Of a stretch of 64,000 bases of DNA, positions 5,018-44,731 are shown piece by piece. Numbering within the stretch: the stretch's first letter is position 1; each line of letters begins with the position of its first letter. The stretch lies in the IMG/VR virus record IMGVR_UViG_3300042542_005523; one strand, given 5' to 3'. Source of the stretch: a virus (Duplodnaviria; Caudoviricetes). The notes under the pieces are model-generated. The model did not search any database. It saw nothing but the letters and a program-made list of their open reading frames with translations, and was not told the origin of the DNA. The translations under genes and the position numbers were made by a program.

Positions 5018-5025
5018 GATATATA
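5018..5025 (+). promoter_or_regulatory. putative late promoter GATATATA in hairpin loop
   Basis: Exact motif 15 nt before GTG 5041, inside a perfect 10-bp stem 5008-5036. Confidence 0.7.
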
Positions 5026-8486: not shown

Positions 8487-10517
8487 ATGAAATATTCTGA
8501 TACAATAAACGAAAATTATGTCTTCATCCTGGAGAAGCAAGATTTTATTCTTGAATCCAAGAAGACTAATAGTGATGACTATGTTCTAGAAGGCATTGCT
8601 GCTGTATTCCAAAAGGAGAACAACAACAATAGAATCTATACTGAGGGGGATTATCTTCCGCATCTTAGCTATTTGAAGGATAAGATTGCACAAAAAAGAC
8701 TAGTTGGTGAATTAGATCATCCGGAAAAATTTGACGTCTCTCTAAAGAATATTTCTCACATTATAACGGATCTTAATTACGATAAGGATAATAAGACAAT
8801 CAGGATAAAAGTTAAATTACTTGACACCCCAGCAGGACAAATTGCTAAGAAATTAGTAGATGCTGGAGTTCCTATCTCTATTTCATCAAGAGCAGCTGGT
8901 AATGTTGGTCCGGATAAGAAGGTAGAGATCAAGAAGATATTCACATATGATCTTGTTGCCGATCCTGGATTTCAAGACGCTCAATTAGAGAGAGTTTATG
9001 AAAGCGCAGGATTCACCCAATCTGATATTAAGAACTTTACTGATAAATATTCAGTCACATCTGGTCTAGAGTGTATCAATGAAAGTTTCGGTATTAAAAA
9101 TAATTCCAGTGTGAAGATATATAAAGTTGAAAATAACGAGGAATTCGATAAATTGATCAACAATAAAGAAAAAAACAAAAAAGCCCTTATGGAGAAGAAT
9201 AATGAATTTGTAACAGCAGAAGAGCTCAATCAGTATTCCGTTTTCTTGAAAAACGAGATGGATTCGATGAAAATTGCTATGGATACAATTAAGGAACAAA
9301 AGTCGAATATTGACGAGTCTCAAGGAGGAAACACTTCTGAATATTGCAGAATCCTTGAGGGAAGAATTGAGAAACTTGAAAAGTATTCCGATTATATAGC
9401 AGAGAATTTAGAAAATTCTGTTAAATATGGTGAATATCTAGCTGAGAATCTTGACAATTCTATTTCATATTCTAAGTATTTAGCTGAAAACCTTGATAAG
9501 TCTATTGCTTATTCTAAGTATTTAGCTGAGAATGTTGATAAAGGAATTTCTTATACAGAATATATTGCTGAAAATGTTGATAGTTCTATTGAGTATTCTA
9601 AATATATTGCTGAAAAGCTTGATCAGAACATTCAATATTCAGAATATCTAGCTGAAAGCGTAGAAAAGAATATTGACTATTCTGAATACCTTGCAGAAAA
9701 CATAGACGATAATATTCAATATGCTGAATATGTAGCTGAGAATTTAGATAAAGGAATTTCTTATTCTGAATACGTAGCAGAAAATGTTTCTAATAACATT
9801 AGCTATTCTGAATATATAGGAGAGAATTTAAACAAGTCTATCACATATAGCGAGTATCTAGCAGAAAGCTTGAATAAGACTATCGACGTAACGGAAAAAA
9901 TTAATGAAAAGGTTAAAACCAACATTAGTTATTCTGAGTATATCGCAGAATCTTTAAATGATGAGTTTGGTAACAAGAACCAAGCACAAGCTCTTAAAGA
10001 GTCTATAAGCTTCACAACAAGAACATCAGCTGAAACTACAGGTTTTGCTGGAAGCTACGATGACTTAAGTTCTAAAATTGACAATTTAATTGAGAAGGTT
10101 AAAACCCAAAAAACCGAAATCAACGAAGCAGCTAAAACTGCATATACACCTGCCGAAACACAAAAGGCGACATCACTACTTACCGAATCTTTGAATGACG
10201 AGAAAGTGTTTAACACCGGAATTAAATTCATTGACGAAATGCCAACTGAGTATGCTCAGGTATGGGAATCACTTAACGAAGGATACAAGCAATCTATTGT
10301 TGCTCAGTCTAACTTCTATAAGCTAGATACACCTTACCAAATCAGAAATTTCTGGTCTACCCGTCAATTAGGCGTTTCTCCTATTGGACTTCAAAAATTA
10401 GACGAGAGTGAAAACACATCCGATGAAAGAAATCAAGCTCAAAATCCAGGTTACAGCAATGCTTACATGGATATGATCGCTAGATCTCTAGAATCAAGAT
10501 TTCAAACAAACAAATAA
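8487..10517 (+). CDS. gp21: prohead protease (T4 gp21-like) fused to scaffold/core domain (gp22-like)
   Basis: LEGIAAVF...NNNNRIY, GELDHP (catalytic His), ISSRAAG (catalytic Ser), YDLVADPGF..A; followed by coiled-coil repeats; lies immediately upstream of the MCP. Confidence 0.9.
   Translation: MKYSDTINENYVFILEKQDFILESKKTNSDDYVLEGIAAVFQKENNNNRIYTEGDYLPHLSYLKDKIAQKRLVGELDHPEKFDVSLKNISHIITDLNYDKDNKTIRIKVKLLDTPAGQIAKKLVDAGVPISISSRAAGNVGPDKKVEIKKIFTYDLVADPGFQDAQLERVYESAGFTQSDIKNFTDKYSVTSGLECINESFGIKNNSSVKIYKVENNEEFDKLINNKEKNKKALMEKNNEFVTAEELNQYSVFLKNEMDSMKIAMDTIKEQKSNIDESQGGNTSEYCRILEGRIEKLEKYSDYIAENLENSVKYGEYLAENLDNSISYSKYLAENLDKSIAYSKYLAENVDKGISYTEYIAENVDSSIEYSKYIAEKLDQNIQYSEYLAESVEKNIDYSEYLAENIDDNIQYAEYVAENLDKGISYSEYVAENVSNNISYSEYIGENLNKSITYSEYLAESLNKTIDVTEKINEKVKTNISYSEYIAESLNDEFGNKNQAQALKESISFTTRTSAETTGFAGSYDDLSSKIDNLIEKVKTQKTEINEAAKTAYTPAETQKATSLLTESLNDEKVFNTGIKFIDEMPTEYAQVWESLNEGYKQSIVAQSNFYKLDTPYQIRNFWSTRQLGVSPIGLQKLDESENTSDERNQAQNPGYSNAYMDMIARSLESRFQTNK
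9384..9971 (+). repeat. 14 tandem 42-bp (14-aa) coding repeats, consensus YSEY(L/I/V)AEN(L/V)D.(S/N)I.
   Basis: First unit YSDYIAENLENSVK at 9384, 14th unit YSEYIAESLNDEFG at 9930 (13 x 42 bp later); unit 13 is degenerate (VTEKINEKVKTNIS). Confidence 0.95.
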
Positions 10518-10533
10518 AAAATAATTTCTAATC

Positions 10534-12279
10534 ATGAAACTAATTAATGAACAAGAAATCTATGATACCTGGTCGCCTCTAATTGAGAGCAAAGCTGGTA
10601 TCACTGATTCAAACAAAAAATCGTGGTTGACTAAGTATTGTCACTACCACTCATTGAACGAATCTGCCGGTGCTTATAACACTCTAGGTGTAGTAAACGG
10701 TATGGGTAACGTAGCGCCTCCTGCATACCCAGGAATGTCTTCATTCGCTGGTTCTAACGCAGGTGGAAACAACTTCGGTGCTAACCAAGGATTCTACAAT
10801 GCTTCTAACAACGGATCTGGTGACAAATTCCCATCTCTTCTTCCATTGGCTATCCAAGTGGCTGCTAAGACTGTTGGATTTGATATCGTTCCTGTTATTC
10901 CAATGTCTGGACCAACTGGTATTTTGTCTTACCTAGACTACGTATACGCTGGTGGTAAACTTGCTGGTGCTACAGCTTCTGGATCTAATGCTGCTGCTGA
11001 AGACCTAGCTGATGCTCCAACAATGATCAAGTTCCCAGTTTATCAGTCAACTGCTGGTACTGGTACTACTGGTGCTACTGCTGGTACATTTGACGTTGGT
11101 ACTGAATATACTGTAACTAATGGTGGCGGTGCTTTGACTTTGATCTTCGTTGGTCTATCAAGAATCGATGGTTTCCCAATCTTTAGAATTTCTGCTATCA
11201 CTGGTGGTTATAACGTTGCTTCTATTATCAACGGTACTCCTGTTAACGTGGTAACTAGCGGTTTCTATACCGGTACATCTGCAAATGGTGGTAACTTCAC
11301 TGCACAATTGGTTAAAGCTCTTGAAGATCACATCCAAGGTTTCTCTGGTGCTGGTTTCAACAACAACCAGGACTGGCAAGGTCCTTACGTTGATGGTACT
11401 AAGACTTACAACCCAATGTTGAGAGGAGTAGCTGAATCTACTTACTACAACTCAATGGGTCTAAGCACCTTCACTAAGTTCGTAGAAGCTGAAACTTTCC
11501 AAGTAGCTGCTTCTGTAACTACGGAGCAAATCCAAGATTTGAACAAGCAATTTGGTATTGACGTTATCTCTATGATCGAGAATGCACTTGTTAACGAGGT
11601 TTCTCAAGCTATTAACAAGCACATCCTTTCTAGAGCATTTGCACTAGGTTGGTCTAACCACACCCAGTTCAATAACGTTCAAAATCAAAACTTGAACTTG
11701 AACTTGATCCTTGGTGGTGGAACTGGTACAACTAGCGCTTACATCAATAAATCTGATGCTAACGTGACTATGCCAATCCCAGCTGGTCCATCTACTTCAA
11801 GCTACGAGAACTTGTCAACTTTACAAAGAAGACTGTACTCTAGAATTCTAGCTGCTGCTAACGTGGTTGCTAACCAAGGTAGAAGAGGTCCTGCTAACTT
11901 CCTTGTAACTAACGCTGCTATCGCTTCTGCGTTACAAGATATTAGCCAGTTCACTTTCGCTCCGTTCACAAACACTCTAACTCAAAACAACGGTACTCTT
12001 TACCCAGTTGGTTCTCTAGCTGGTATGACCGTTTACGTAGATCAGAACATGAACTACAACGACACTAGAGTTTGTGTTGGTAGAAAAGGTGGTGACGATG
12101 AGCCAGGTTTGAAATTCATGCCTTACATGATGGCTGAGTCTATCCAAACCATCTCTGAAGGTACAATGTCTCCGAAGATCGCAGTTAAGTCTAGATACGC
12201 TCTAGTTGAGGCTGGTATGCTTCCAGAGACCCTGTATTTCACTTTCTTCGTACAGCTTCCAGCTGGTGGAATCGTTTAA
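10534..12279 (+). CDS. gp23: major capsid protein, T4 gp23 family
   Basis: W.PLIES, DIVPVIPMSGPTG, EINK-like AINKHIL, RRGPANF, GLKFMPY and PKIAVKSRYAL; strong codon bias (GCT, GGT, AAC, TTC); followed by a terminator. Confidence 0.95.
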   Translation: MKLINEQEIYDTWSPLIESKAGITDSNKKSWLTKYCHYHSLNESAGAYNTLGVVNGMGNVAPPAYPGMSSFAGSNAGGNNFGANQGFYNASNNGSGDKFPSLLPLAIQVAAKTVGFDIVPVIPMSGPTGILSYLDYVYAGGKLAGATASGSNAAAEDLADAPTMIKFPVYQSTAGTGTTGATAGTFDVGTEYTVTNGGGALTLIFVGLSRIDGFPIFRISAITGGYNVASIINGTPVNVVTSGFYTGTSANGGNFTAQLVKALEDHIQGFSGAGFNNNQDWQGPYVDGTKTYNPMLRGVAESTYYNSMGLSTFTKFVEAETFQVAASVTTEQIQDLNKQFGIDVISMIENALVNEVSQAINKHILSRAFALGWSNHTQFNNVQNQNLNLNLILGGGTGTTSAYINKSDANVTMPIPAGPSTSSYENLSTLQRRLYSRILAAANVVANQGRRGPANFLVTNAAIASALQDISQFTFAPFTNTLTQNNGTLYPVGSLAGMTVYVDQNMNYNDTRVCVGRKGGDDEPGLKFMPYMMAESIQTISEGTMSPKIAVKSRYALVEAGMLPETLYFTFFVQLPAGGIV

Positions 12280-16892: not shown

Positions 16893-16921
16893 GAAAACAA
16901 AACTCATTTTGATGATATAAT
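16893..16921 (+). promoter_or_regulatory. putative early/middle promoter GAAAAC-N17-TATAAT
   Basis: Upstream of the dNMP kinase + asnB pair. Confidence 0.55.
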
Positions 16922-20221: not shown

Positions 20222-20254
20222 AAAAGGCCTCGAGTTTCTCGGGGCTTTTTTTAT
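20222..20254. terminator. bidirectional rho-independent terminator
   Basis: AAAAGGCCTCGAG-TTT-CTCGGGGCTTTTTT between convergent genes, with A and T tracts on both sides. Confidence 0.85.
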
Positions 20255-20985
20255 TGCTTTCTTCTTTTAGATAGTGTCTCTATGAATTTATCTTTTGCCA
20301 ATTTCAGAATGTCTGATTTTTCTGAAAAGTTTTCATAGATCTCAACAACATAGAATGCTGGAGTGAAATTTTTATCAGCTCCCATTTCGGATAAGATCTC
20401 GTGATAGATGTGCTCGTACGATAGAGAGAATTTCTTATTGTTCAGAGATATTTTTTTCATTACTATGACATCTTTTTTACTTCCCTCCGTATTCATTATC
20501 GTTTCCTTCCAATAATACGGGATCAGTCTTTCTGTTATCATATTTCTTATTAGTAGAACACCTGATTCCGAAAGCCCTGAAATTCTATCGTATTTAGACT
20601 CTAGCTTGAATATCTTGATCTTTTCCTCTTCCTCTTTAATGATCTCTAAGCATATCTCTGAGAATTCATATAATATACCTAAAGACGATGAAATAACCTC
20701 GTCTATCTCTTTGAAAGTGTCGCTTTGTTTAGGCAGATCCACTATCTTATTGTATTCAGATAGGGATTCTTTAGATATACCGGCTAGTAAAAACCCTGGT
20801 ATTTTCCTACTTTCCTTGAATGAGCTCATTGCTTTAACGAGAGTAGATATCTCCTTTAAACTGCTCAGTACTGAGGGACCGTCTAGATTTTGACTTTTAT
20901 TTTTTAAAAAATCTAAAAGCACATAGCTTTTGTGCTCTACGTCAAGAGGACTTTCCAAAAACCATATTGGGTTCAACTTCTCCAT
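20251..20985 (-). CDS. hypothetical protein (only minus-strand gene)
   Basis: 244-aa ORF filling a gap with no competing + strand gene; ends at the bidirectional terminator. Confidence 0.85.
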   Translation of the reverse strand: MEKLNPIWFLESPLDVEHKSYVLLDFLKNKSQNLDGPSVLSSLKEISTLVKAMSSFKESRKIPGFLLAGISKESLSEYNKIVDLPKQSDTFKEIDEVISSSLGILYEFSEICLEIIKEEEEKIKIFKLESKYDRISGLSESGVLLIRNMITERLIPYYWKETIMNTEGSKKDVIVMKKISLNNKKFSLSYEHIYHEILSEMGADKNFTPAFYVVEIYENFSEKSDILKLAKDKFIETLSKRRKQ

Positions 20986-30752: not shown

Positions 30753-31433
30753 ATGCCAAGTGAAAGAACCCTACTGGGGATAATAGTAGACATAGATGAT
30801 CCTCTAAAAGAGGCTAGGGCAAAAATCCGTGCTTTTGGATTTTTCGATGATGTTGCAGTAGAGGATCTCCCTTGGGCAGAACAAATCGCTGGATTATCTT
30901 TTGGCGGAGGTGGCGGAGGGGGTAACCTGACTATACCTAGATTGGGAGCTGTTGTAGCGGTTCACTTCGAGGAGAATAATTACTATAAGATTACCTATCA
31001 CTATATTAAGGAGATATCTAGTGATCTTTTGGATAAGATGCAGGAGGATAACTGTTACACGGGTGCAAACTATTTAATATATGATTCCGAGGCAAAACCC
31101 GGTCCTTTGCATATGTACTATACGTATAAGGATGGTGTTGTTTTTGAATTAGATAATGCAAAAATACAACTGGACACACAGAATGGTGGTCAGCTTAGAG
31201 TGGTTGTAAAAATGGGTGACGATGAGATTAGAATGGAGAATAGCAAAGTTATCATAGAATCTGGAAATATAGAACTAGGTAGCGGTACTAGTACATTGGA
31301 AAAGGTTATACTTGGTGATACATTTTTAAGCTTCTTTAATCAGCACACACATGCTACACCAGCAGGACCATCCTCCCCTCCTGCTTCACCGATGACAACA
31401 GCTCAATTGAGTTTCATCACTAAAACTAGGTAA
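30753..31433 (+). CDS. gp5: baseplate central spike (gp5/VgrG OB-fold, HxH tip, no lysozyme domain)
   Basis: GIIVDIDDPLKEARAKIR...LPWA...IPRLGAVVAVHF OB-fold; C-terminal HTH metal-binding tip followed by PAGPSSPP. Confidence 0.85.
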   Translation: MPSERTLLGIIVDIDDPLKEARAKIRAFGFFDDVAVEDLPWAEQIAGLSFGGGGGGGNLTIPRLGAVVAVHFEENNYYKITYHYIKEISSDLLDKMQEDNCYTGANYLIYDSEAKPGPLHMYYTYKDGVVFELDNAKIQLDTQNGGQLRVVVKMGDDEIRMENSKVIIESGNIELGSGTSTLEKVILGDTFLSFFNQHTHATPAGPSSPPASPMTTAQLSFITKTR

Positions 31434-31435
31434 GG

Positions 31436-33364
31436 ATGGCTAATTGGCAGCAATTTATAACGGATTTTTCTAACTTTTTATCTTCTAACCAATCTAGCGG
31501 TCCCTTTCAGACCGGCAAAAAACTATCTGAATATTATGTTAATACCATAAAAGGTGCTAAGGCTATTCCCGCAGGAAATGCTTTAAATGGTAATTTAGCA
31601 CAGAGCTTCAAGCCTATATTAGATCTTGGATTTGGACTTGGCTTTTTTCTTCTACAGAACTCACAGAAAACTTTCAAACAGTTACAGGGAGACGAGAAAT
31701 ATTTCGATGGGTCCAGCCCCATACCTTCCGAGGAGGAGCAAAAGGCGTTTAAAGAACAGCCTCAGGTTCAGGATCAATCCATAGATGATATATTTAATCT
31801 AGTATCCCAGGACGATCTTGAGGATATTAGAAAAAATGGTACTTGGAATTTTTTCCTACATGAGACGGACGGCAAAGAATCAACCAAGATATTTAACTAC
31901 AAAGCTAAAGTAGATTTTAATAACGTAGGTAATACGAAGGTTTCTATATTTGGTAACACATTACAAAAAGCTAAGAGCGGTATAGCTAGGTACGGATTTC
32001 TCCCCGGTATCAATACGATATTAACATACGATAGAGAGGATGCGAAAGAGGATGCCCAGGATGAGATAAATTCTAGAGGCATTGGAGCTTTAACCTTTAA
32101 TGACCTATATAGCTATCTTGTAAAAACTCTAAATGACGATAGAAAGGATAGATTGGATCAAGCGGTAAGAGCAAACACGGGATCGGACAGTGGAACTCAG
32201 GCAGTTAGAAACGATATAGACAATATATTTCTAAGTCTTTATTCTACAGAACTTCAGAAATGGATAGAGATAATAACCCCTTATATTTCTAAGAGTTTGG
32301 CAAATGCATCAGATGAGACATTTTCTGACTCAGCCAAGACAACCCCTTCTTCTCTAGGAATATCATCGGACGGTGAAAATTTTATATCTATAATAGAAGA
32401 GAATTCTATTTTTCCTACTGTTAGCTCCCGATCTGTGACTACAGTAGGTGATTTTCAGAAGGAGGTCCAATTTAAAATTGCAATAAAAGCGGGAAGCGAT
32501 GTTTCTGTATTACGGGACGTTACCCTTAATAACATACAATATGGCCTTGCTGGTACACCGGTAATTGACATAAGGTTTACATTAAATGGATCTGAGGATT
32601 TAAGCGTAGTGGTAACTGATTTATCTACTAGATCTCAGGAAAGATTCACTATAAATAAAGTTTTTGGACAGAATGGTTACCCAGCCGGAAGTCAAAACGA
32701 GACATATAGATTTCCTCCTGGCGGGCCAATTTATCCGTCCGCTGCTGTACAGGAGCAGGATGCTGTAAAAAGCGCAAAAGATTCAATTAATGGTGTACTA
32801 GGGTCTCTGTCCGCTGACTTCCAACAAAAGTTGATAAATTTCGGATTGGATGCTAAGATAGCTGATCTTATGTCTAAGAGCGATCCTTATCTAGTTATGT
32901 CATCTAGTGTAGTCCTATATTGGACTATATTGGGATTGGTTCCTACTTGCTTTGCAGCCAATCCGCCGGTACTTCCTGCTAGCATACCAGCTCCTGGACT
33001 TTTTACTATAATTTTTCCAGGTCTTCCGTTTACGCTTGCTAATAAATTGAGACTGTCTTTTAATGCAGGATTGAATCCCGTCTTTAATCCTGAATTAGAT
33101 CCAAATGGGCTTGTAGAAAAAGCAGCTTCGCTTTCCAATTCTATCGAATCTGAAGAATTTAAAGCTCTTCTTTCCCTTATAGAATCACAGAAGGCCTTGC
33201 TAGAAGCAACAAAGAGCCAAAATCTAGTTTCTAAAGCGGTTTCAACTAAACTCGCAGTTTCTTTTGCATTACATTTGCTTTCTCTGAAGTTTCTATATAC
33301 TGGATCAACTCAGGCAGGACCTGCAACTGTTCCGACCCCTGGATTTGTTTTGCTCGTATTTTAA
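31436..33364 (+). CDS. spike-adjacent baseplate protein containing an Hsp70/DnaK substrate-binding beta-domain
   Basis: aa about 304-406 (nt 32345-32656) align near-gaplessly with DnaK SBD-beta; hydrophobic Pro-rich C-terminus. Confidence 0.75.
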   Translation: MANWQQFITDFSNFLSSNQSSGPFQTGKKLSEYYVNTIKGAKAIPAGNALNGNLAQSFKPILDLGFGLGFFLLQNSQKTFKQLQGDEKYFDGSSPIPSEEEQKAFKEQPQVQDQSIDDIFNLVSQDDLEDIRKNGTWNFFLHETDGKESTKIFNYKAKVDFNNVGNTKVSIFGNTLQKAKSGIARYGFLPGINTILTYDREDAKEDAQDEINSRGIGALTFNDLYSYLVKTLNDDRKDRLDQAVRANTGSDSGTQAVRNDIDNIFLSLYSTELQKWIEIITPYISKSLANASDETFSDSAKTTPSSLGISSDGENFISIIEENSIFPTVSSRSVTTVGDFQKEVQFKIAIKAGSDVSVLRDVTLNNIQYGLAGTPVIDIRFTLNGSEDLSVVVTDLSTRSQERFTINKVFGQNGYPAGSQNETYRFPPGGPIYPSAAVQEQDAVKSAKDSINGVLGSLSADFQQKLINFGLDAKIADLMSKSDPYLVMSSSVVLYWTILGLVPTCFAANPPVLPASIPAPGLFTIIFPGLPFTLANKLRLSFNAGLNPVFNPELDPNGLVEKAASLSNSIESEEFKALLSLIESQKALLEATKSQNLVSKAVSTKLAVSFALHLLSLKFLYTGSTQAGPATVPTPGFVLLVF

Positions 33365-33377
33365 ACTTTTGCTATCT

Positions 33378-33385
33378 GATATATA
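33378..33385 (+). promoter_or_regulatory. putative late promoter GATATATA
   Basis: Upstream of the S1 homolog. Confidence 0.7.
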
Positions 33386-33423
33386 CATAAGAAACTAATA
33401 TTAACCATTTAAAACTAAAATTG

Positions 33424-34593
33424 ATGTATCAAGAATTCGAAAATGAAGAATTCAGTTGGGAAAATTCAAACGGATTTAAGCCTAACAAAAAAATTAAGAA
33501 TAATCACGGGATGACTATTTATTGTCATGCTGATTATGCTGAAGAACTTGCTGCGGCATACGCTAAGCATTCTGAAGGACTAGATTGGAATGATCTAGCT
33601 AAGGATCTAGTTGATGGCAGAATGTACCCTTGTAAAATTGTTGCTTTAACTGAAGAAGAGGCTTTTGCCCAGACTGACTCAGGTCAAACAATTTATATTG
33701 ACCTGAAGAAGGAAAGAAGGGATGCTGAAAAATTAAATATCGAGGGTATTGATTTTACAGTAGGTACTAGAATAGAAGCTCACGTTAGAAGAACTCCTAA
33801 GGGATATCTTGGATCTGTTGTTGAGCATTATATAAAGACGCTGAAGTCTGAACTTTTTGATCAAATCAAAAAAGAAACTACAGCTTATAAAGTAAAGGTT
33901 GAGAGCATAAATAAAGGTGGATATATTGTCGATCTTTGTGGTATTAAGTGTTTCATGCCTGGATCCTTGGCTGCAGCTAATAAGATCAAGGATTTCGAAT
34001 CCTATATTGGAAAGGATATACACGTAATGATGGAAGGCTATATAGAGGCAAAAGATACCTTCATTGTTTCTTACAAGAAGTATATTTCCAAGATTATGGA
34101 GCAGAAGATTCAAGAGCTTGACCTAACCAGGAAATATAAAGGCTCCATCACTGGAACAAGCCCATTTGGAGTTTTTGTTGAGTGGGAGGAGATCTATACT
34201 GGCTTGATCCATAAGAGCGAGTTCGAGAGTGACGATGAATTGTCCAAACTTTGTTCAGGTGACGAGATAGAATTCTATGTGAAGGAGATTAAAGAGAACA
34301 ATAAATTGACTCTAACGCTAGATAGACCCTTAGAAAGAAACGTAATTCTTTATGATATTGAGACTCGTGTCGAGGAAGGCACAATAGAGCCAATGCAAGC
34401 TCTCATCAAGCACAAAAGAAAAAATGGAGTGCTTATAGAGATAAGCGATATTGGTCTAATGGCATTTATAAGTTCCGAGCATTTGGGTAAAGGCGATAGA
34501 AATGCTAAGACTGGTGATCCTATTGAAATATTAATATGGAAGATAGACGTTCACACAGGAAAAATATTTGCTAAATCCATAAATGAAGGATAA
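33424..34593 (+). CDS. rpsA: ribosomal protein S1 homolog (four S1/OB domains)
   Basis: KVKVESINKGGYIVDLCGIKCFMPGS (S1 domain 2 pattern), YKGSITGTSPFGVFVEW...GLIHKSE (domain 3 pattern), plus flanking degenerate S1 domains. ATG 33424 preferred over TTG 33421. Confidence 0.85.
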   Translation: MYQEFENEEFSWENSNGFKPNKKIKNNHGMTIYCHADYAEELAAAYAKHSEGLDWNDLAKDLVDGRMYPCKIVALTEEEAFAQTDSGQTIYIDLKKERRDAEKLNIEGIDFTVGTRIEAHVRRTPKGYLGSVVEHYIKTLKSELFDQIKKETTAYKVKVESINKGGYIVDLCGIKCFMPGSLAAANKIKDFESYIGKDIHVMMEGYIEAKDTFIVSYKKYISKIMEQKIQELDLTRKYKGSITGTSPFGVFVEWEEIYTGLIHKSEFESDDELSKLCSGDEIEFYVKEIKENNKLTLTLDRPLERNVILYDIETRVEEGTIEPMQALIKHKRKNGVLIEISDIGLMAFISSEHLGKGDRNAKTGDPIEILIWKIDVHTGKIFAKSINEG

Positions 34594-35989
34594 TAGAAAC
34601 CATTTTGAAAAAGCTCAGGCTCTTTCTTTGTCTGATGTTGGGTTTGAATTCGAATTCTTTTCCAATGTTACCAAAGGAAGAGCTGCTGATGCTCTTTCGA
34701 AACTTCTCGGTAAAAAAGTAGATGTATCTAATAAATACCACTCGGATATACCGGTTAACAGGGAGAGATTCAAGTTAGAGCCGGATTACTCGGGGGGTAT
34801 AAGTATGTTAGAACTTGTTACTGGTCCAATGAGTTATAACGAGGCTATACCTGTTATGATCAAGATCCTAAAATGGATAGACGAGAATGGATGGACAAGC
34901 GATAAATGCGCTTTCCAATTCTCAGTTAGTTTTAACCCGGAGAGAGCCAATCTTAAAAATGCGATACAAACGATGGATCATTTAAAGTTCATCCTTGGTA
35001 TTGACGAGAATTTCATTTATTCTAAGTTTGGTAACAGAACAAAGAATGTCTATGCTAAATCTATAAAAAGGGTTTTACCCAGAAGTAGATACATGATATT
35101 GGAGAATATTAGCACTATAGACCCAATGATGTTTAAGACACCTAGTGACAAGTACTATGGTGTGAATTTCACAAAGGCTCCTGATGGATATTTAGAGTTC
35201 AGGTATTTAGGTGGTAAGGATTATCAGAAAAAGATAGAGCCAATCAGAGAGGTTGTTGAATATATCATTCTGTATCTCTATGATATAGTTAGCAAAAGAA
35301 TGGGAGGCTATAGTAAGGAGGACCTAGATAAGCTAAAATCAATGATGAAGGATTATGCTAATGTTGTAAAATGCTTCTCTAAACCTGAGCTTTTCCTTAG
35401 ATATTATCCCGACTTCAAGATATTTATAGATCTTAAAGGATTTGACGGTAATCTAAGAACATATTTCCCTGCAATCAGGGATAAGGTATTTGATCTTGTT
35501 ATAGAAGGCGGTATAACAGATTGCTTTTTTAATTATGACACATCCACAGGGAGATGCCAACTTAAAGGTGCAAGGTCTAGAAATTCTTTTGAGATCTACG
35601 ATTTTGACGTGATTGATTGCGATATAAAGGGTTCTTATTTAAAGAAGTGCAACATATACGATTCTAAGATTAACAAATCAAATCTAGATGAATGCTACCT
35701 AGTAAGAGGTACAGATGTTCTTAATTCTAGAATAGAAGCATGCTCTGTTGAACCTACTAATAAGCTTAAGGACTGCTACATAAACTGTGAACAGAAATCT
35801 ATCAATTGCGAGATTGATGGCGGAGTGCTAAGAGCAGGTATACTTGGTGAATATGCTGAATTAAGTAAGGACACTAAAAAAGTCAAGGGATGGAACGAGG
35901 TTAGAAATGAAAGATTCATAACTGATAAAAGACTTCAGGACCTAAACGATAAATATAAAGGAGCCAAATTTGGCGATATGAATTATTAA
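34583..35989 (+). CDS. putative amidoligase (COOH-NH2 ligase fold) with C-terminal pentapeptide-like beta-helix
   Basis: VGFEFEF, EPDYSGG, LELVTGPM, KYYGVNF, YLEFRYLGG; the CG.HVH motif reads CAFQFS; I/L every fifth residue in the C-terminus. Confidence 0.7.
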   Translation: MKDNRNHFEKAQALSLSDVGFEFEFFSNVTKGRAADALSKLLGKKVDVSNKYHSDIPVNRERFKLEPDYSGGISMLELVTGPMSYNEAIPVMIKILKWIDENGWTSDKCAFQFSVSFNPERANLKNAIQTMDHLKFILGIDENFIYSKFGNRTKNVYAKSIKRVLPRSRYMILENISTIDPMMFKTPSDKYYGVNFTKAPDGYLEFRYLGGKDYQKKIEPIREVVEYIILYLYDIVSKRMGGYSKEDLDKLKSMMKDYANVVKCFSKPELFLRYYPDFKIFIDLKGFDGNLRTYFPAIRDKVFDLVIEGGITDCFFNYDTSTGRCQLKGARSRNSFEIYDFDVIDCDIKGSYLKKCNIYDSKINKSNLDECYLVRGTDVLNSRIEACSVEPTNKLKDCYINCEQKSINCEIDGGVLRAGILGEYAELSKDTKKVKGWNEVRNERFITDKRLQDLNDKYKGAKFGDMNY

Positions 35990-35997
35990 ACTTCACC

Positions 35998-36804
35998 ATG
36001 ACTGAAACAGAATTAATCCAAGAAATTACAGACGCGCTTAATTTCAGCTGCGGTCTTCCTTATTCCCTTAATGAACAAGAGGTTAGAAGGATTATAAAGA
36101 GAGCCAAGGATTGGTTCTATGATAACTATCAATATTCTGTTGAGGATAGAATGTTCATAATCGGTAAAGCTGTTTTTGCACATCCTGAATGGAGGGCAAC
36201 TAGACAACTGACACTCCCTGATTCGATTGTATCAGTATATGAAGTTAGAGACGTGGGTGGAGCGGGTGTTAGTGGTAATCCAGATAAGGATTTTGGTGAT
36301 TCTAAACTCCTTGGTTCCGAACTGCTGCTATCTCCTTTTATTGGTGATAATCTTGTTTATAGAACAGTTATGTACTCCTATTTTGATTTGGCTAAGGCTT
36401 ATCTATTAGCTACCTATGCTTTCAAATGGAATAAGAACTCAAAGAGACTTACCATTCAAGGACGTGATCCAAATAGATCAGGAGTAGGGGGTTCAAATAG
36501 TAATTCTAATTCACAGTTAGCTCAAGGATTTTCGAGCGGGAATGGCGGATACGATCTATATGTGAGATGTTTTGTTAAAATAGGTGACGAGTATCTTTTC
36601 GATGACGAATTGTTTGTTAGATATTGTATCGCTAAGTCCAAGATAGCTTTAGGAAGAATGCTCGGGACATTTAACTATAATCTACCTGGTGGAGTTCAAG
36701 TAAATGCAACGGATGTCATTAGCGCCGGAACCGAAGAGTTACAGGAGGTCATGGATATGATCAATGGTGAGAACACTCCTAGTTATTTCTTACAGTGGAA
36801 TTAA
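35998..36804 (+). CDS. gp13: neck protein (T4 gp13-like)
   Basis: YCIAKSKIALGRMLGTFNYNLPGGVQVNA matches the gp13 C-terminal motif. Confidence 0.8.
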   Translation: MTETELIQEITDALNFSCGLPYSLNEQEVRRIIKRAKDWFYDNYQYSVEDRMFIIGKAVFAHPEWRATRQLTLPDSIVSVYEVRDVGGAGVSGNPDKDFGDSKLLGSELLLSPFIGDNLVYRTVMYSYFDLAKAYLLATYAFKWNKNSKRLTIQGRDPNRSGVGGSNSNSNSQLAQGFSSGNGGYDLYVRCFVKIGDEYLFDDELFVRYCIAKSKIALGRMLGTFNYNLPGGVQVNATDVISAGTEELQEVMDMINGENTPSYFLQWN

Positions 36805-36857: not shown

Positions 36858-36865
36858 GATATATA
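36858..36865 (+). promoter_or_regulatory. putative late promoter GATATATA in hairpin loop
   Basis: Upstream of the gp25-like gene. Confidence 0.7.
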
Positions 36866-36878
36866 AACAAAAATAGGG

Positions 36879-37250
36879 ATGAGAGACATTTACAACAGAG
36901 ATCCACAAGATCCTAATTACGTACCTTACATCTTAGAGGTCACAGATCCAATAGAGATCTGTGTTGGCCAGCTTAAAATGATGCTCTTGACAGACAAGGG
37001 TGAAGTTTTAGGTGATCCTAAATTTGGGCTTGCCTTGGAATCTTTAATTTTCGAATTAAATCTATCTCAGGACTCTATAAGAAAAGAGCTAGATCTTCAT
37101 CTGTCAACATATTGCCCGCTTTTTAGAGTACTCGGTGGAACATATGATTTGAAGTTTTATTTGGGTACGAATAGGGATATAGCATTTCTAGATTTTCTTT
37201 TGCCATACCAAGGCGATCAAAGTCCAGTTGTTAGTTTAAAGTTAAGTTAA
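36879..37250 (+). CDS. gp25: baseplate wedge / sheath initiator (gp25-like)
   Basis: LLTDKGEVLGDPKFGLALESLIFE. Confidence 0.8.
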   Translation: MRDIYNRDPQDPNYVPYILEVTDPIEICVGQLKMMLLTDKGEVLGDPKFGLALESLIFELNLSQDSIRKELDLHLSTYCPLFRVLGGTYDLKFYLGTNRDIAFLDFLLPYQGDQSPVVSLKLS

Positions 37251-37255
37251 AAAGC

Positions 37256-39001
37256 ATGAACATATATCAAAAGAATAGAATTCTAATCAGCGGTCTCTTA
37301 TCGGACACTTATGTTTTTCTACAGAGAACATACAATCAGTCTAGAAACGTATTTACCGCTGCTTCAGCTTGGGGACAAATACTTTTTGTATTACAGAACC
37401 TATCGCAGATGATCCTTTATTTCATAGAGGACTCAATTACCGAATTGAACATTTATCAAGCAACACGGGACTACTCAGTGAAGAGCATAGCTAGACTATC
37501 TGGGTATGATCCAGGTAGAGCATCTACAGCTCAGGGCGAGATCTCAATACAATGGAATCTTAATACTGCTCCAGTTGGTGGGGGATCAGTTATAATAGCG
37601 AACAACACACAGGTTCAATGTATACAGAACGGTAAGTACTATTCTATGATGTTACCCTCTCCGACGGTTACCTTCAATCTTGTGCCCAATAACACTCTAA
37701 GGGTTAAGATAGCACAGGGAACAGTTCAAAATGCGACTGTTACGGGGACTGGACTTGCACTTCAATCTTTTAACATACCTTCTAAATCGGGAGCTTTTAT
37801 TGATCAATATTATGTGAACGTTTATGTGAATGAGGAGAAGTGGAAAAGATATGATTCTTTTTATGATATGCCTTTGCAGGGATCTACTTTCATAGTAAGA
37901 ACCGGTATTTCACAGGGAATTGATGTCTATTTTGGTAATGGTAATTTTGGCAAGGTTCCACCTCCTGGATCTATAATAAGAATAGAGTACATACAGACAC
38001 TAGGAGGACAAGGAAATCTTAGATCAACAGCAGATAAGCCAATTACTTATAGATTCACAACTTTAGGGACCGATCTATTTGGACAGCAGCTTAATCTTAA
38101 TGATTGTGTTAATATCAGAAATGAGGTTGATCCTTTGTTTGGTAGCGATCCCGAGAGTACTGAACTTATAAGATTGGTTGCACCCTATACTAGTAGAGCG
38201 TTCGTTCTGGCAAATCCACAATCGTATGAAATATATTTGACAAGATTAAATATTTTCTCGCAAATACATGCTTACTCTACTTTTGAAGATGAATATTTGG
38301 ACGATGATAATATAGTTTACATTTATCTAGTTCCAGATATAACTCTCAACCTAGAATCAAACCAGGATTACTTTGATATACCCACAGCGGAGTTTATACT
38401 TTCACCTGAAATGAAATTAGCTATAATAAATCTTCTGGAGGATTCAGGACAAATGATAGCTACTACCGTGTTAAAGATAATTGATCCAGCTATAACTAGG
38501 ATAGTTGGTAACGCTTCTGTTACGATATTTGAAGGCAACGATCCAACTACCATAAAGAACACTATCCGTAGATCCATAGCAAGCTATATGCTCAATCTAA
38601 AGAGAAGAGACAGAATACCAAGATCTGATATTATCGCTATATTAGAATCTATACCAGGTGTTGACTCAGCTAACTTCTTTTTTACAAGCCAGAAGAATGA
38701 AGCAAATCAGTTAACAATGCAGGGTGCTACTAATTTAAACGCTGCAACACTTAACACTCAGGTTGGAATAGATTCTTTCGGTGACATCCTCATAGGAAGA
38801 AATGAGTTAGTAATAATGAGAGGAGGATGGACAGACCGTTACGGCGTGACCTATAAAGAAGGTATCGTTGATGGCGCACCTTGTTCTTTGAATATTGATA
38901 TACCTTATGTGGTTCCTAATACATTTAACACAGAATCCGCTAAGAACCAGAAGTCTGTTATTATTGATTCTAACAGCCAGACCGTACCAAGAACAATGTA
39001 A
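37256..39001 (+). CDS. gp6: baseplate wedge protein (gp6-like)
   Basis: ATRDYSVKSIARLSGYDP, VYFGNGNFGKVPPPGSIIRIEY, GSDPESTELIR, SDIIAILESIPGVD. Confidence 0.8.
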   Translation: MNIYQKNRILISGLLSDTYVFLQRTYNQSRNVFTAASAWGQILFVLQNLSQMILYFIEDSITELNIYQATRDYSVKSIARLSGYDPGRASTAQGEISIQWNLNTAPVGGGSVIIANNTQVQCIQNGKYYSMMLPSPTVTFNLVPNNTLRVKIAQGTVQNATVTGTGLALQSFNIPSKSGAFIDQYYVNVYVNEEKWKRYDSFYDMPLQGSTFIVRTGISQGIDVYFGNGNFGKVPPPGSIIRIEYIQTLGGQGNLRSTADKPITYRFTTLGTDLFGQQLNLNDCVNIRNEVDPLFGSDPESTELIRLVAPYTSRAFVLANPQSYEIYLTRLNIFSQIHAYSTFEDEYLDDDNIVYIYLVPDITLNLESNQDYFDIPTAEFILSPEMKLAIINLLEDSGQMIATTVLKIIDPAITRIVGNASVTIFEGNDPTTIKNTIRRSIASYMLNLKRRDRIPRSDIIAILESIPGVDSANFFFTSQKNEANQLTMQGATNLNAATLNTQVGIDSFGDILIGRNELVIMRGGWTDRYGVTYKEGIVDGAPCSLNIDIPYVVPNTFNTESAKNQKSVIIDSNSQTVPRTM

Positions 39002-44723: not shown

Positions 44724-44731
44724 AATATATA
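44724..44731 (+). promoter_or_regulatory. late-type box variant AATATATA
   Basis: 5 nt before ATG 44737. Confidence 0.45.

What the first reader, a model, noticed from the sequence alone, without database searches (positions are those of the whole stretch)
33424..34593. Phage-encoded ribosomal protein S1 under a late-type promoter, with a possible packaging signal
Seen: four S1/OB domains and a GATATATA box at 33378. The N-terminus MYQEFENEEFSW resembles the T4 capsid-targeting peptide MKTYQEFIAE. EEFSW..NG...EELAAAY also recalls the N-terminus of Bacteroides S1 (EDFNW..ENG...EELEKAY, from memory). Known: S1 binds A/U-rich leaders and drives initiation on mRNAs without Shine-Dalgarno sequences; S1 and S21 homologs have been reported in metagenomic huge phages. 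Inference: it may bias host ribosomes toward this phage's A-rich leaders, and could be delivered from the virion.
Basis: partly seen in the sequence, partly recalled or inferred. Interest (0 to 1): 0.65.

Follow-up and report, generated by a model that had tools for sequence, protein, structure and literature searches.

The report
Giant-phage mini ribosomal protein S1
A giant lake-water phage, probably of Bacteroidota, carries a shortened four-domain copy of ribosomal protein S1 under a conserved late promoter among its baseplate genes. This kind of gene has already been reported in huge phages, and the suggested virion-packaging signal does not hold up.

Summary
Window 33424-34593 (+) encodes a 389-aa protein with four OB/S1 barrels (AlphaFold2). 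Its best sequence and fold matches are all ribosomal protein bS1. It is collinear with bS1 domains 1-4.

It is not a stray gene. At least 143 IMG/VR viral contigs carry it, including complete 430-434 kb genomes. In all 80 loci examined it sits between the baseplate hub and wedge genes. The same order holds in a phage with only about 30% identity.

The GATATATA box at 33378 is kept upstream of the gene in nearly all relatives. In the window it also precedes the prohead-protease/capsid and gp25/wedge operons, so "late-type promoter" is a fair inference.

The N-terminal F-x-W motif and following helix match S1 of class Bacteroidia (30/31 genomes). They are absent from other Bacteroidota classes (1/30) and from E. 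coli. Window leaders are A-rich and depleted in Shine-Dalgarno cores.

The resemblance to the T4 capsid-targeting peptide is four residues, present only in the three nearest kin, so it is not supported.

Most likely function (inferred): a ribosome-docking mini-S1 that helps translate late phage mRNAs. Phage "possible rpS1" genes were already reported (Al-Shayeb 2020), so this is a new member of a known kind. Other first-stage notes of this scan had already flagged the same stretch.

The parts
33378..33385 (+). GATATATA promoter-like box (late type), 38 nt before the S1 start codon
   Evidence: (G/A)ATATATA is kept 28-45 nt upstream of the S1 start in about 55 of 56 distinct related upstream regions whose flanks have diverged. 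The same box precedes the prohead-protease/capsid operon (8453) and the gp25/wedge operon (36858).
33386..33423 (+). A/T-rich leader without a Shine-Dalgarno sequence. It is the longest box-to-ATG spacer of the eight intergenic boxed promoters in the window.
   Evidence: Relatives keep a TTTAAAC-like element followed by an A run directly before the ATG.
33424..34593 (+). CDS of the 389-aa four-domain bS1 homologue (P0001)
33424..33621 (+). N-terminal module (aa 1-66): F-x-W motif (F10, invariant W12), an N-x-K-I-K...V-Y-C-H-x-x-Y-A segment, and a helix at 38-50. Homologous to the pre-domain-1 segment of Bacteroidia S1; candidate uS2-docking element.
33622..33816 (+). OB domain 1 (aa 67-131). 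Divergent, with a basic helix insert at 94-103. The residue equivalent to E. coli Lys43 is Gly-Gln.
33886..34071 (+). OB domain 2 (aa 155-216) with the bS1 domain-2 signature KGGY-x-V-D-L-x-G-I-K-C-F-M-P-G-S-L. K164, Y167 and F177 are invariant.
   Evidence: The E. coli equivalents K117, F120 and F130 are described in PMC10123108.
34132..34317 (+). OB domain 3 (aa 237-298). A canonical S1 RNA-binding domain, with invariant F248, F251 and H263.
   Evidence: Pfam S1 best stretch 237-295; aligned to E. coli domain 3; invariants.
34393..34578 (+). OB domain 4 (aa 324-385). The least conserved domain, with a basic KHKRKNG strand.
   Evidence: (OB_cyt-4, weak)
34583..35989 (+). Amidoligase_2-fold gene. 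Its start overlaps the S1 stop by 11 nt, so it is probably co-transcribed and translationally coupled.
   Evidence: Adjacent to S1 in all 80 related loci; still downstream of S1 in LR756500.1, after a gap of about 1.2 kb.
35998..36804 (+). Third gene of the putative S1 operon (268 aa, weak match to a head-tail adaptor family)
   Evidence: No GATATATA box occurs between 33378 and 36858.
36858..36865 (+). Next GATATATA box, before the gp25-like and wedge genes. It marks the likely end of the S1 transcription unit.

Best explanation
The gene encodes a phage version of ribosomal protein bS1, shortened to domains 1-4. It descends from, or has been kept compatible with, the S1 of class Bacteroidia.

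It is a core gene of a large clade of uncultured huge phages (about 270-435 kb). It is transcribed from its own conserved GATATATA late-type promoter as the first gene of a three-gene unit inside the baseplate module.

Proposed mechanism (inferred, not shown): late in infection the protein docks at the bS1 site of the host 30S subunit. Docking would use its N-terminal F-x-W/helix segment and domains 1-2. Domains 3-4 would capture the phage's short, A-rich, Shine-Dalgarno-less late leaders. The protein would thus supplement or displace the weakly bound six-domain host S1 and sustain or bias initiation on late phage mRNAs.

Shown here: homology, architecture, conservation, synteny, the promoter motif and the leader composition. 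Inferred: ribosome binding, timing of expression and any effect on translation.
For: Identity:
- NCBIfam rpsA models give the top eleven hits.
- A PDB profile search returns bS1 chains, collinear from domain 1 through domain 4.
- The Foldseek top hits are bS1 on 30S complexes, E 1.7e-19.
- The AF2 model has four OB barrels.

bS1-specific features retained:
- The domain-2 KGG[FY]...F[LM]PGS signature, with invariant K164/Y167/F177. These correspond to the E. coli OB2 residues K117/F120/F130 that contact mRNA at the exit channel (PMC10123108).
- Domain 3 keeps the canonical F, F, H RNA-binding residues.
- The N-terminal F-x-W motif is shared with Bacteroidia S1. It occurs in 30/31 Bacteroidia genomes, 1/30 genomes of other Bacteroidota classes, 0 in E. 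coli, and 28/28 family members.
- hhalign of the family against Bacteroidia S1 is collinear from F-x-W to domain 4: probability 97.7, E 1.8e-12.
- A clade joining the phage S1s to Bacteroidia S1 is not rejected, p-AU 0.555.

Selection:
- Identity across the clade is 50-62%, on a par with the neighbouring structural genes.
- The wider family comprises hundreds of protein clusters.

Expression context:
- The promoter box is conserved and shared with head and baseplate operons.

Substrate context:
- Window leaders are 50% A and 11% G. SD cores occur before 3 of 43 genes, against a 15.8% background.
- This matches the SD-independent initiation of Bacteroidia, for which bS1 is thought to be especially important (PMC7797042).
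- It also matches the published link between phage "possible rpS1" genes and the lack of SD sequences (PMC7162821).
Against: - No experiment has been done. 30S binding is untested.
- The protein scores far below the rpsA equivalog cut-off: 81.6 against 577 bits.
- It sits on a stem of 2.86 substitutions per site away from cellular S1.
- Domain 1 is strongly diverged. The lysine that E. coli S1 (Lys43) inserts into the uS2 zinc pocket is conserved in all sampled cellular S1 but is Gly-Gln in the phage family.
- The register of the N-terminal helix against E. coli Phe5/Phe9 differs between MAFFT and hhalign.
- The gene has stayed for a very long time between hub and wedge genes, next to two other housekeeping-derived modules. 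That also fits a virion-linked role.
- Some late leaders may be very short if transcription starts just after the box, which leaves little RNA for S1 to bind.
Confidence: 0.55

Rival explanations
1. Off-ribosome RNA-binding protein. The bS1-derived protein no longer docks on the 30S subunit. It acts free in the cytoplasm as an RNA chaperone, protector or regulator of A/U-rich late phage mRNAs, or as a cofactor of a phage enzyme, in the way host S1 serves T4 RegB or the Q-beta replicase.
For: - The uS2-pocket lysine is lost and domain 1 is highly diverged.
- The protein is far below the rpsA cut-off and lies on a long stem branch.
- Al-Shayeb et al. themselves leave open a role "on or off the ribosome" (PMC7162821).
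- Extraribosomal roles of S1 in phage biology are documented (PMC13157829).
Against: The parts of bS1 that do not bind RNA in E. coli are the very parts the phage retains and conserves: the N-terminal segment, domains 1-2, and the Bacteroidia-specific F-x-W motif. A free RNA binder would need only domains 3-4.
Confidence: 0.2
2. Virion cargo. The protein is packaged in the particle, in the head core or in the baseplate/tail lumen, and ejected with the DNA, so that it seizes ribosomes at the very start of infection.
For: - Late promoter and deeply conserved position between the hub and wedge genes, in an operon with probable structural genes.
- The phage has a T4-type prohead protease.
- Other notes of this scan point to neighbouring housekeeping-derived modules (unchecked).
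Against: - The proposed targeting peptide (MYQEF) is present only in the three nearest kin.
- No conserved cleavage motif precedes the F-x-W.
- The conserved N-terminal residues are explained by S1 ancestry.
- Lak phages keep the gene 160 kb away from their wedge gene.
- No virion proteome exists for any relative. Every phage record with a match comes from metagenomes or faecal samples; none is a cultured isolate.
Confidence: 0.1
3. Dominant-negative decoy. The four-domain protein occupies the bS1 site on host 30S but, lacking domains 5-6, supports only phage-type leaders or none. It would thereby contribute to shut-off of host translation.
For: The docking-side features are retained. It lacks the two C-terminal domains that all sampled Bacteroidota S1 possess (open frames of 580 aa or more).
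Against: - Late expression is an odd time for host shut-off.
- Domains 3-4 keep RNA-binding residues.
- From general knowledge, E. coli S1 lacking its C-terminal domains still functions.
Confidence: 0.1
4. Structural re-use. The tandem OB folds have been recruited as a baseplate building block or assembly factor with no role in translation.
For: Location in the baseplate module, conserved even at about 30% identity. OB folds occur in hub proteins such as the adjacent gp5-like gene.
Against: - RNA-binding and mRNA-contact residues are invariant.
- There is no PHROG structural family match.
- Lak phages place the gene elsewhere.
Confidence: 0.05

Closest known systems
Bacterial ribosomal protein bS1 (rpsA), especially that of class Bacteroidia
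   Same: - Collinear OB domains 1-4.
- The domain-2 KGG[FY]...FLPGS signature with the K/aromatic/F triad.
- A canonical RNA-binding domain 3.
- The N-terminal F-x-W motif and pre-domain-1 helix that are typical of Bacteroidia S1.
   Different: - Only four domains and 389 aa, against six domains and about 580-600 aa.
- It lacks the variable low-complexity N-terminal leader.
- It has an insert of about 11-13 residues (N-x-K-I-K...) after F-x-W and a basic helix insert in domain 1.
- The uS2-pocket lysine is replaced.
- It scores 81.6 bits against the 577-bit cut-off.
"Possible rpS1" genes of huge phages (Al-Shayeb et al. 2020, PMC7162821), including Lak megaphages and LR756500-LR756504
   Same: - Same protein superfamily: all short phage S1s form one clade, support 100.
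- Lak-C1 has the same N-terminal layout.
- Same association with genomes that lack SD sequences.
- LR756500.1 keeps the same hub-X-S1-amidoligase order and the same GATATATA box.
   Different: - This lineage is only 28-37% identical to those records.
- Its fixed place in the baseplate module, its own conserved promoter and the Bacteroidia-type N-terminus were not mentioned in the papers my searches turned up.
- Lak phages keep the gene elsewhere in the genome.
Phage-encoded bS21 of freshwater Bacteroidota huge phages (Chen et al. 2022, PMC9723584)
   Same: A small-subunit protein acting at the mRNA exit and initiation site, encoded within a structural-gene region of phages up to about 330 kb and linked to late-stage replication. 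One of five related genomes tested here also encodes bS21.
   Different: It is a different protein, and four of the five related genomes lack bS21. That paper does not mention S1.
Four-domain S1 proteins of Firmicutes (NF005208/PRK06676 type)
   Same: Similar length and number of domains. Match of 68 bits over residues 113-305.
   Different: The score is far below that model's cut-off of 368 bits. From general knowledge, Firmicute S1 lacks the ribosome-anchoring domain 1, whereas the phage protein aligns from the very N-terminus of Bacteroidia S1.
T4 late promoters (TATAAATA, a -10-type box with no -35 element)
   Same: A single A/T-rich octamer a short distance before late genes, with no common upstream element in the window.
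   Different: The sequence differs (GATATATA). The transcription machinery and start sites are unknown. In many relatives a GGAACTTA element lies about 8-10 nt upstream of the S1 box.

Membership tests
Ribosomal protein bS1 (rpsA) | Tandem S1/OB domains collinear with bS1 domains 1 onward | tested here: met
   Four OB barrels. Collinear profile alignments to M. smegmatis bS1 (family-profile positions 59-300 vs chain 31-278), to a 470-aa bS1 (110-380 vs 62-342) and to Bacteroidia S1 (8-384 vs 5-363).
Ribosomal protein bS1 (rpsA) | Domain-2 signature KGG[FY]-x-V-x-L-x-G-[IV]-x-x-F-[LM]-P-G-S with the Lys/aromatic/Phe triad (E. coli K117, F120, F130) | tested here: met
   K164, Y167 and F177 are invariant in 28 family members and aligned to the E. 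coli and Bacteroidota residues.
Ribosomal protein bS1 (rpsA) | N-terminal helix with aromatic residues that stacks on uS2 (E. coli Phe5, Phe9) | tested here: inconclusive
   A helix at 38-50 with invariant Y38 and A39 and near-invariant Y46 precedes domain 1. hhalign and MAFFT give different registers against the cellular helices.
Ribosomal protein bS1 (rpsA) | Loop-2 lysine of domain 1 inserted into the uS2 zinc pocket (E. coli Lys43) | tested here: not met
   All aligned cellular S1 have G-[FYL]-K-S at this point. The phage family has [STA]-G-Q-T (invariant G87, Q88).
Ribosomal protein bS1 (rpsA) | Score above the curated equivalog cut-off | tested here: not met
   TIGR00717 gives 81.6 bits against a cut-off of 577. 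All other rpsA models are also far below their cut-offs.
Ribosomal protein bS1 (rpsA) | Reversible binding to the 30S subunit and promotion of mRNA recruitment | not testable with these tools
   Needs biochemistry with Bacteroidia ribosomes.
Huge-phage short S1 superfamily ("possible rpS1" of Al-Shayeb 2020) | Protein of about 360-430 aa with four OB domains, encoded on huge-phage genomes and forming one clade apart from cellular S1 | tested here: met
   The top 150 representatives are all 101-449 aa, most of them about 360-430 aa. The clade that includes Lak-C1 and LR756500 has support 100. Viral contigs reach 434 kb and have terminal repeats.
T4-type capsid-targeting sequence (IPIII MKTYQEFIAE) | Conserved N-terminal targeting peptide ending in a prohead-protease site | tested here: not met
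   Only YQEF is shared. It is present in 3 of 28 family members and already lost at 73% identity. No conserved cleavage motif is seen. Actual packaging is not testable here.
Late promoter of T4 type (single -10-like octamer) | A recurrent octamer on the coding strand just upstream of late genes, conserved among relatives | tested here: met
   12 of 12 copies lie on the + strand and 8 are in short spacers before genes that include the prohead protease and gp25/wedge. The box is conserved before S1 in about 55 of 56 relatives and in LR756500.1.
Late promoter of T4 type (single -10-like octamer) | Late timing, and dependence on a phage-encoded factor | not testable with these tools
   No transcript data are available and no sigma-like factor was searched for.

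The most novel reading that the evidence does not exclude
The mini-S1, together with the adjacent Hsp70-clamp protein and the amidoligase-fold protein, is a set of host-derived proteins mounted at or loaded through the baseplate and ejected with the DNA. The phage would then arrive with its own translation-initiation factor and convert host ribosomes before any phage gene is expressed. The position between hub and wedge, conserved down to about 30% identity, would reflect this physical association rather than expression timing alone.
Probability: 0.1. Interest if true: 0.85.

Novelty: new member of a known kind. Interest (0 to 1): 0.5.

Why it matters
Bacteroidia initiate translation without Shine-Dalgarno pairing and are thought to lean heavily on bS1. 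Yet bS1 has not been seen on a Bacteroidia ribosome: it was lost from the F. johnsoniae structure (PMC7797042).

This phage family is a natural minimal S1. It keeps exactly the F-x-W motif, the helix and domains 1-4, and it is sampled in hundreds of diverged sequences. It therefore points to the parts of Bacteroidia S1 that matter for docking and for capturing mRNA.

It also offers a compact protein for structural work, and a concrete test of the published but untested idea that huge phages reprogram host ribosomes with their own ribosomal proteins.

The conserved GATATATA box and the SD-less, A-rich leaders define the late regulatory signals of an uncultured but widespread clade of huge phages.

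Tried and rejected
- PHROGs gave no family for the protein.
- Megablast of 10 kb around the gene against GenBank phages found nothing.
- The window's own assembly is not held. The nearest record is a 47-kb IMG/VR fragment.
I took genomic context from IMG/VR loci instead.
- A phmmer search of the N-terminal 71 residues against PDB found nothing.
- The PDB chains named "Ribosomal protein S1 homologue" (28jw and others) looked like a possible phage structure. They are from the Chlamydomonas chlororibosome.
- I considered the Jug phages (Bacteroides, 360-402 kb) as the lineage. That paper has no mention of S1, so I did not pursue it.
- I tested bS21 co-occurrence with the phages of Chen et al. 2022. 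Only 1 of 5 related genomes has bS21.
- The T4 capsid-targeting reading is rejected because the peptide is not conserved.
- Recent capture from a host is rejected. All phage S1s form one old clade on a long stem, and GC content is unremarkable.
- The tree alone cannot place the origin. The free tree puts the phage clade outside the sampled Bacteroidota, but forcing it together with Bacteroidia is not worse.
- Binning of two phage contigs into MAGs, one labelled Saprospirales, is only a weak hint to the host.

Full report
**Observation**

The ORF at 33424-34593 (+) is real and encodes 389 aa. The ATG at 33424 is the start used across the family.

Pfam finds the S1 domain at E 2.7e-15. The eleven best NCBIfam hits are all rpsA models, but far below their curated cut-offs: TIGR00717 gives 81.6 against 577 bits. 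PHROGs has no family for the protein.

An AlphaFold2 model built on 28 family members (mean pLDDT 78) shows four OB barrels at residues 67-131, 155-216, 237-298 and 324-385. They follow an N-terminal segment with a helix at 38-50. Foldseek against the PDB returns bS1 on 30S complexes as the top hits, E 1.7e-19.

A profile of the family against PDB sequences returns ribosomal S1 for 13 of 14 matches; the weakest is a PNPase S1 domain. The alignments are collinear from domain 1 to domain 4.

**What genome this is**

All neighbours are phage structural genes:
- a gp5/VgrG-like hub at 30753-31433;
- a gp25-like gene at 36879-37250;
- a gp6-like wedge at 37256-39001;
- a prohead protease at 8487-10517;
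- a major head protein at 10534-12279.

The nearest held record is an IMG/VR fragment judged 17% complete. A contig with a 97% identical S1 is 181 kb and judged 66% complete. More distant family members lie on complete genomes of 430 and 434 kb with terminal repeats.

The nearest GenBank relatives of both S1 and the wedge protein are the huge phages LR756500-LR756504 and the Prevotella Lak megaphages.

**Distribution and synteny**

The protein has hundreds of homologues of 385-397 aa in metagenomes. A full HMMER scan of 1.8 billion cluster representatives returns only short proteins among the top 150, most of them about 360-430 aa. In that scan 416 clusters score E below 1e-10.

In IMG/VR, 143 viral contigs encode it. 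In all 80 loci fetched the order is the same wherever the contig reaches: hub, a variable gene, S1, an amidoligase-fold gene, a 268-aa gene, gp25, wedge. S1 is 50-62% identical across these loci, like its structural neighbours.

The amidoligase-fold gene starts 11 nt before the S1 stop. The same order also holds in LR756500.1, where S1 is only about 30% identical. It does not hold in Lak-C1.

**Promoter and leaders**

GATATATA occurs 12 times in the window, always on the coding strand, against 5.9 expected on both strands. Eight copies lie in the roughly 2.2 kb of short intergenic spacers, 13-38 nt before a start codon. These include the spacers before the protease/capsid operon and the gp25/wedge operon.

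Upstream of the S1 gene the box (G/A)ATATATA is kept in about 55 of 56 distinct related sequences, 28-45 nt before the ATG, while the flanks have diverged. It also recurs in LR756500.1. This is good phylogenetic-footprint evidence for a promoter. "Late" is inferred from the genes it serves.

No other box lies between 33378 and 36858. S1, the amidoligase-fold gene and the 268-aa gene therefore probably form one transcription unit.

Across 43 genes the 20 nt before the start are 50% A and 11% G. SD cores occur before 3 of 43 genes, against a 15.8% background. This is the Bacteroidota pattern.

**Relation to cellular S1**

I fetched S1 genes from 31 genomes of class Bacteroidia and 30 of other Bacteroidota classes. 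The handle for these searches came from a Saprospirales-labelled MAG that contains a phage contig. I also took E. coli rpsA.

An aromatic-x-W motif, typically DFDW, lies shortly before the pre-domain-1 helix with these frequencies:
- 30 of 31 Bacteroidia S1;
- 1 of 30 genomes of the other Bacteroidota classes, and that one is spurious;
- not in E. coli;
- 28 of 28 family members;
- many of the wider phage family, including Lak-C1.

hhalign of the family against Bacteroidia S1 runs collinear from this motif to the end of domain 4: probability 97.7, E 1.8e-12. The phage has an 11-residue insert after the motif. That insert resembles a KKVKVFAHYEP segment found in some other Bacteroidota S1.

In a maximum-likelihood tree all short phage S1s form one clade (support 100) on a stem of 2.86 substitutions per site. 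The free tree does not nest them in Bacteroidia. However, a tree that joins them to Bacteroidia is not worse, p-AU 0.555. The capture is therefore old and its donor is not settled by the tree. The shared F-x-W motif points to Bacteroidia.

**Ribosome-binding determinants**

I compared the protein with the E. coli contacts described in PMC10123108.
- The OB2 triad K117/F120/F130 corresponds to invariant K164/Y167/F177.
- The N-terminal helix is present with conserved aromatic residues, but its register is uncertain.
- Lys43, which enters the uS2 zinc pocket, is conserved in all sampled cellular S1 and replaced by Gly-Gln in the phage family.
- Domain 3 keeps the canonical Phe, Phe and His of RNA-binding S1 domains.

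The protein thus keeps most, but not all, features expected of a ribosome-docking S1. It also keeps precisely the segments that do not bind RNA in E. coli S1. That argues against a purely free RNA binder.

**Packaging idea**

The T4 IPIII peptide and this protein share only YQEF. The MYQEFENEEF start is found in 3 of 28 aligned members and is gone at 73% identity. The conserved N-terminal residues are those shared with bacterial S1.

The phage does have a T4-type prohead protease. The gene's old linkage to the baseplate genes keeps a virion-cargo role possible, at low probability. No cultured relative or virion proteome exists.

**Literature**

Al-Shayeb et al. 2020 list S1 among the ribosomal proteins of huge phages. 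They note that phages with "possible rpS1" rarely have SD sequences, and they leave open a role on or off the ribosome (PMC7162821). Mizuno et al. 2019 set S1-domain proteins aside as ambiguous (PMC6375957). Chen et al. 2022 linked phage bS21, in a structural region, to late replication (PMC9723584). bS1 was not resolved on the F. johnsoniae ribosome (PMC7797042).

The kind of gene is therefore known. Three points about this lineage do not appear in the papers my searches turned up:
- the fixed place in the baseplate module;
- the gene's own conserved late box;
- the Bacteroidia-type N-terminus combined with the lost pocket lysine.

**Earlier notes of this scan**

Notes had already flagged the same stretch, the neighbouring Hsp70-clamp and amidoligase-fold genes, and the late-promoter box. 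I used them only as leads.

**Verdict**

This is a genuine, strongly conserved, phage-encoded mini-bS1 under a late-type promoter. It most likely helps host ribosomes initiate on the phage's SD-less late messages (confidence 0.55). The packaging signal is not supported. It is a new member of a known kind and of moderate interest.

Noticed in passing
window 2852-49603 (+), boxes at 5018, 8453, 12378, 18895, 21040, 33378, 36858, 49596: GATATATA marks what look like the late transcription units of the whole window. Near variants (ATATATAG at 2285, GATATAAT near 16910, AATATATAAT near 44725) sit in other spacers. No common upstream element is visible, which recalls the T4 late promoter type.
   Followed up: partly
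L011-L054 etc., about 8-10 nt upstream of the S1 promoter box (for example L012, L016, L027): Many relatives carry a conserved GGAACTTA element in the spacer just upstream of the S1 box. It is absent, or reduced to AACTT, in the window itself. It could be a gene-specific regulatory site.
   Followed up: no
window 31436-33364 (+): The gene between the hub and S1 is by far the most variable member of the module. It shows 23-36% identity or no hit at all in relatives, where its neighbours keep 45-75%. It contains an Hsp70 substrate-binding-like stretch (Pfam HSP70, residues 302-409).
   Followed up: partly
window 34583-35989 (+): An amidoligase_2-fold gene (Pfam E 5.3e-06, N-terminal 160 aa only) overlaps the S1 stop by 11 nt. 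It is adjacent to S1 in all 80 loci and still follows it, after a gap of about 1.2 kb, in LR756500.1. Whether it acts on S1, on a ribosomal protein or on a virion protein is unknown.
   Followed up: partly
L085 (CALAZP010000190.1, 64 kb) and L084 (CALAYS010000089.1): Two contigs of this phage clade are binned inside bacterial MAGs, one labelled Saprospirales. This is either bin contamination or a weak co-abundance hint to the host.
   Followed up: partly
L157 (G085:C1:40696-40851, minus strand): One related 349-kb genome also encodes a bS21 homologue (31.7 bits, above the Pfam cut-off). Four other related genomes do not.
   Followed up: partly
L114-L123 (S1 genes of some non-Bacteroidia Bacteroidota): These cellular S1 proteins have a KKVKVFAHYEP segment before the N-terminal helix. 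It aligns with the phage-specific N-x-K-I-K...V-Y-C-H-E-P-Y-A insert, which suggests the phage N-terminus combines two motifs that are now split among Bacteroidota lineages.
   Followed up: partly
window 20251-20985 (-): This is the only sizeable minus-strand ORF (244 aa) in an otherwise entirely plus-strand 64-kb window. It sits in an 855-nt gap that ends with a GATATATA box. I did not annotate it.
   Followed up: no
L158 (LR756500.1, reverse strand), about 16.6-24.4 kb of the locus: In this distant relative about 8 kb of small ORFs are inserted between the 268-aa gene homologue and gp25, and about 1.2 kb without a long ORF separates S1 from the amidoligase-fold gene.
   Followed up: no
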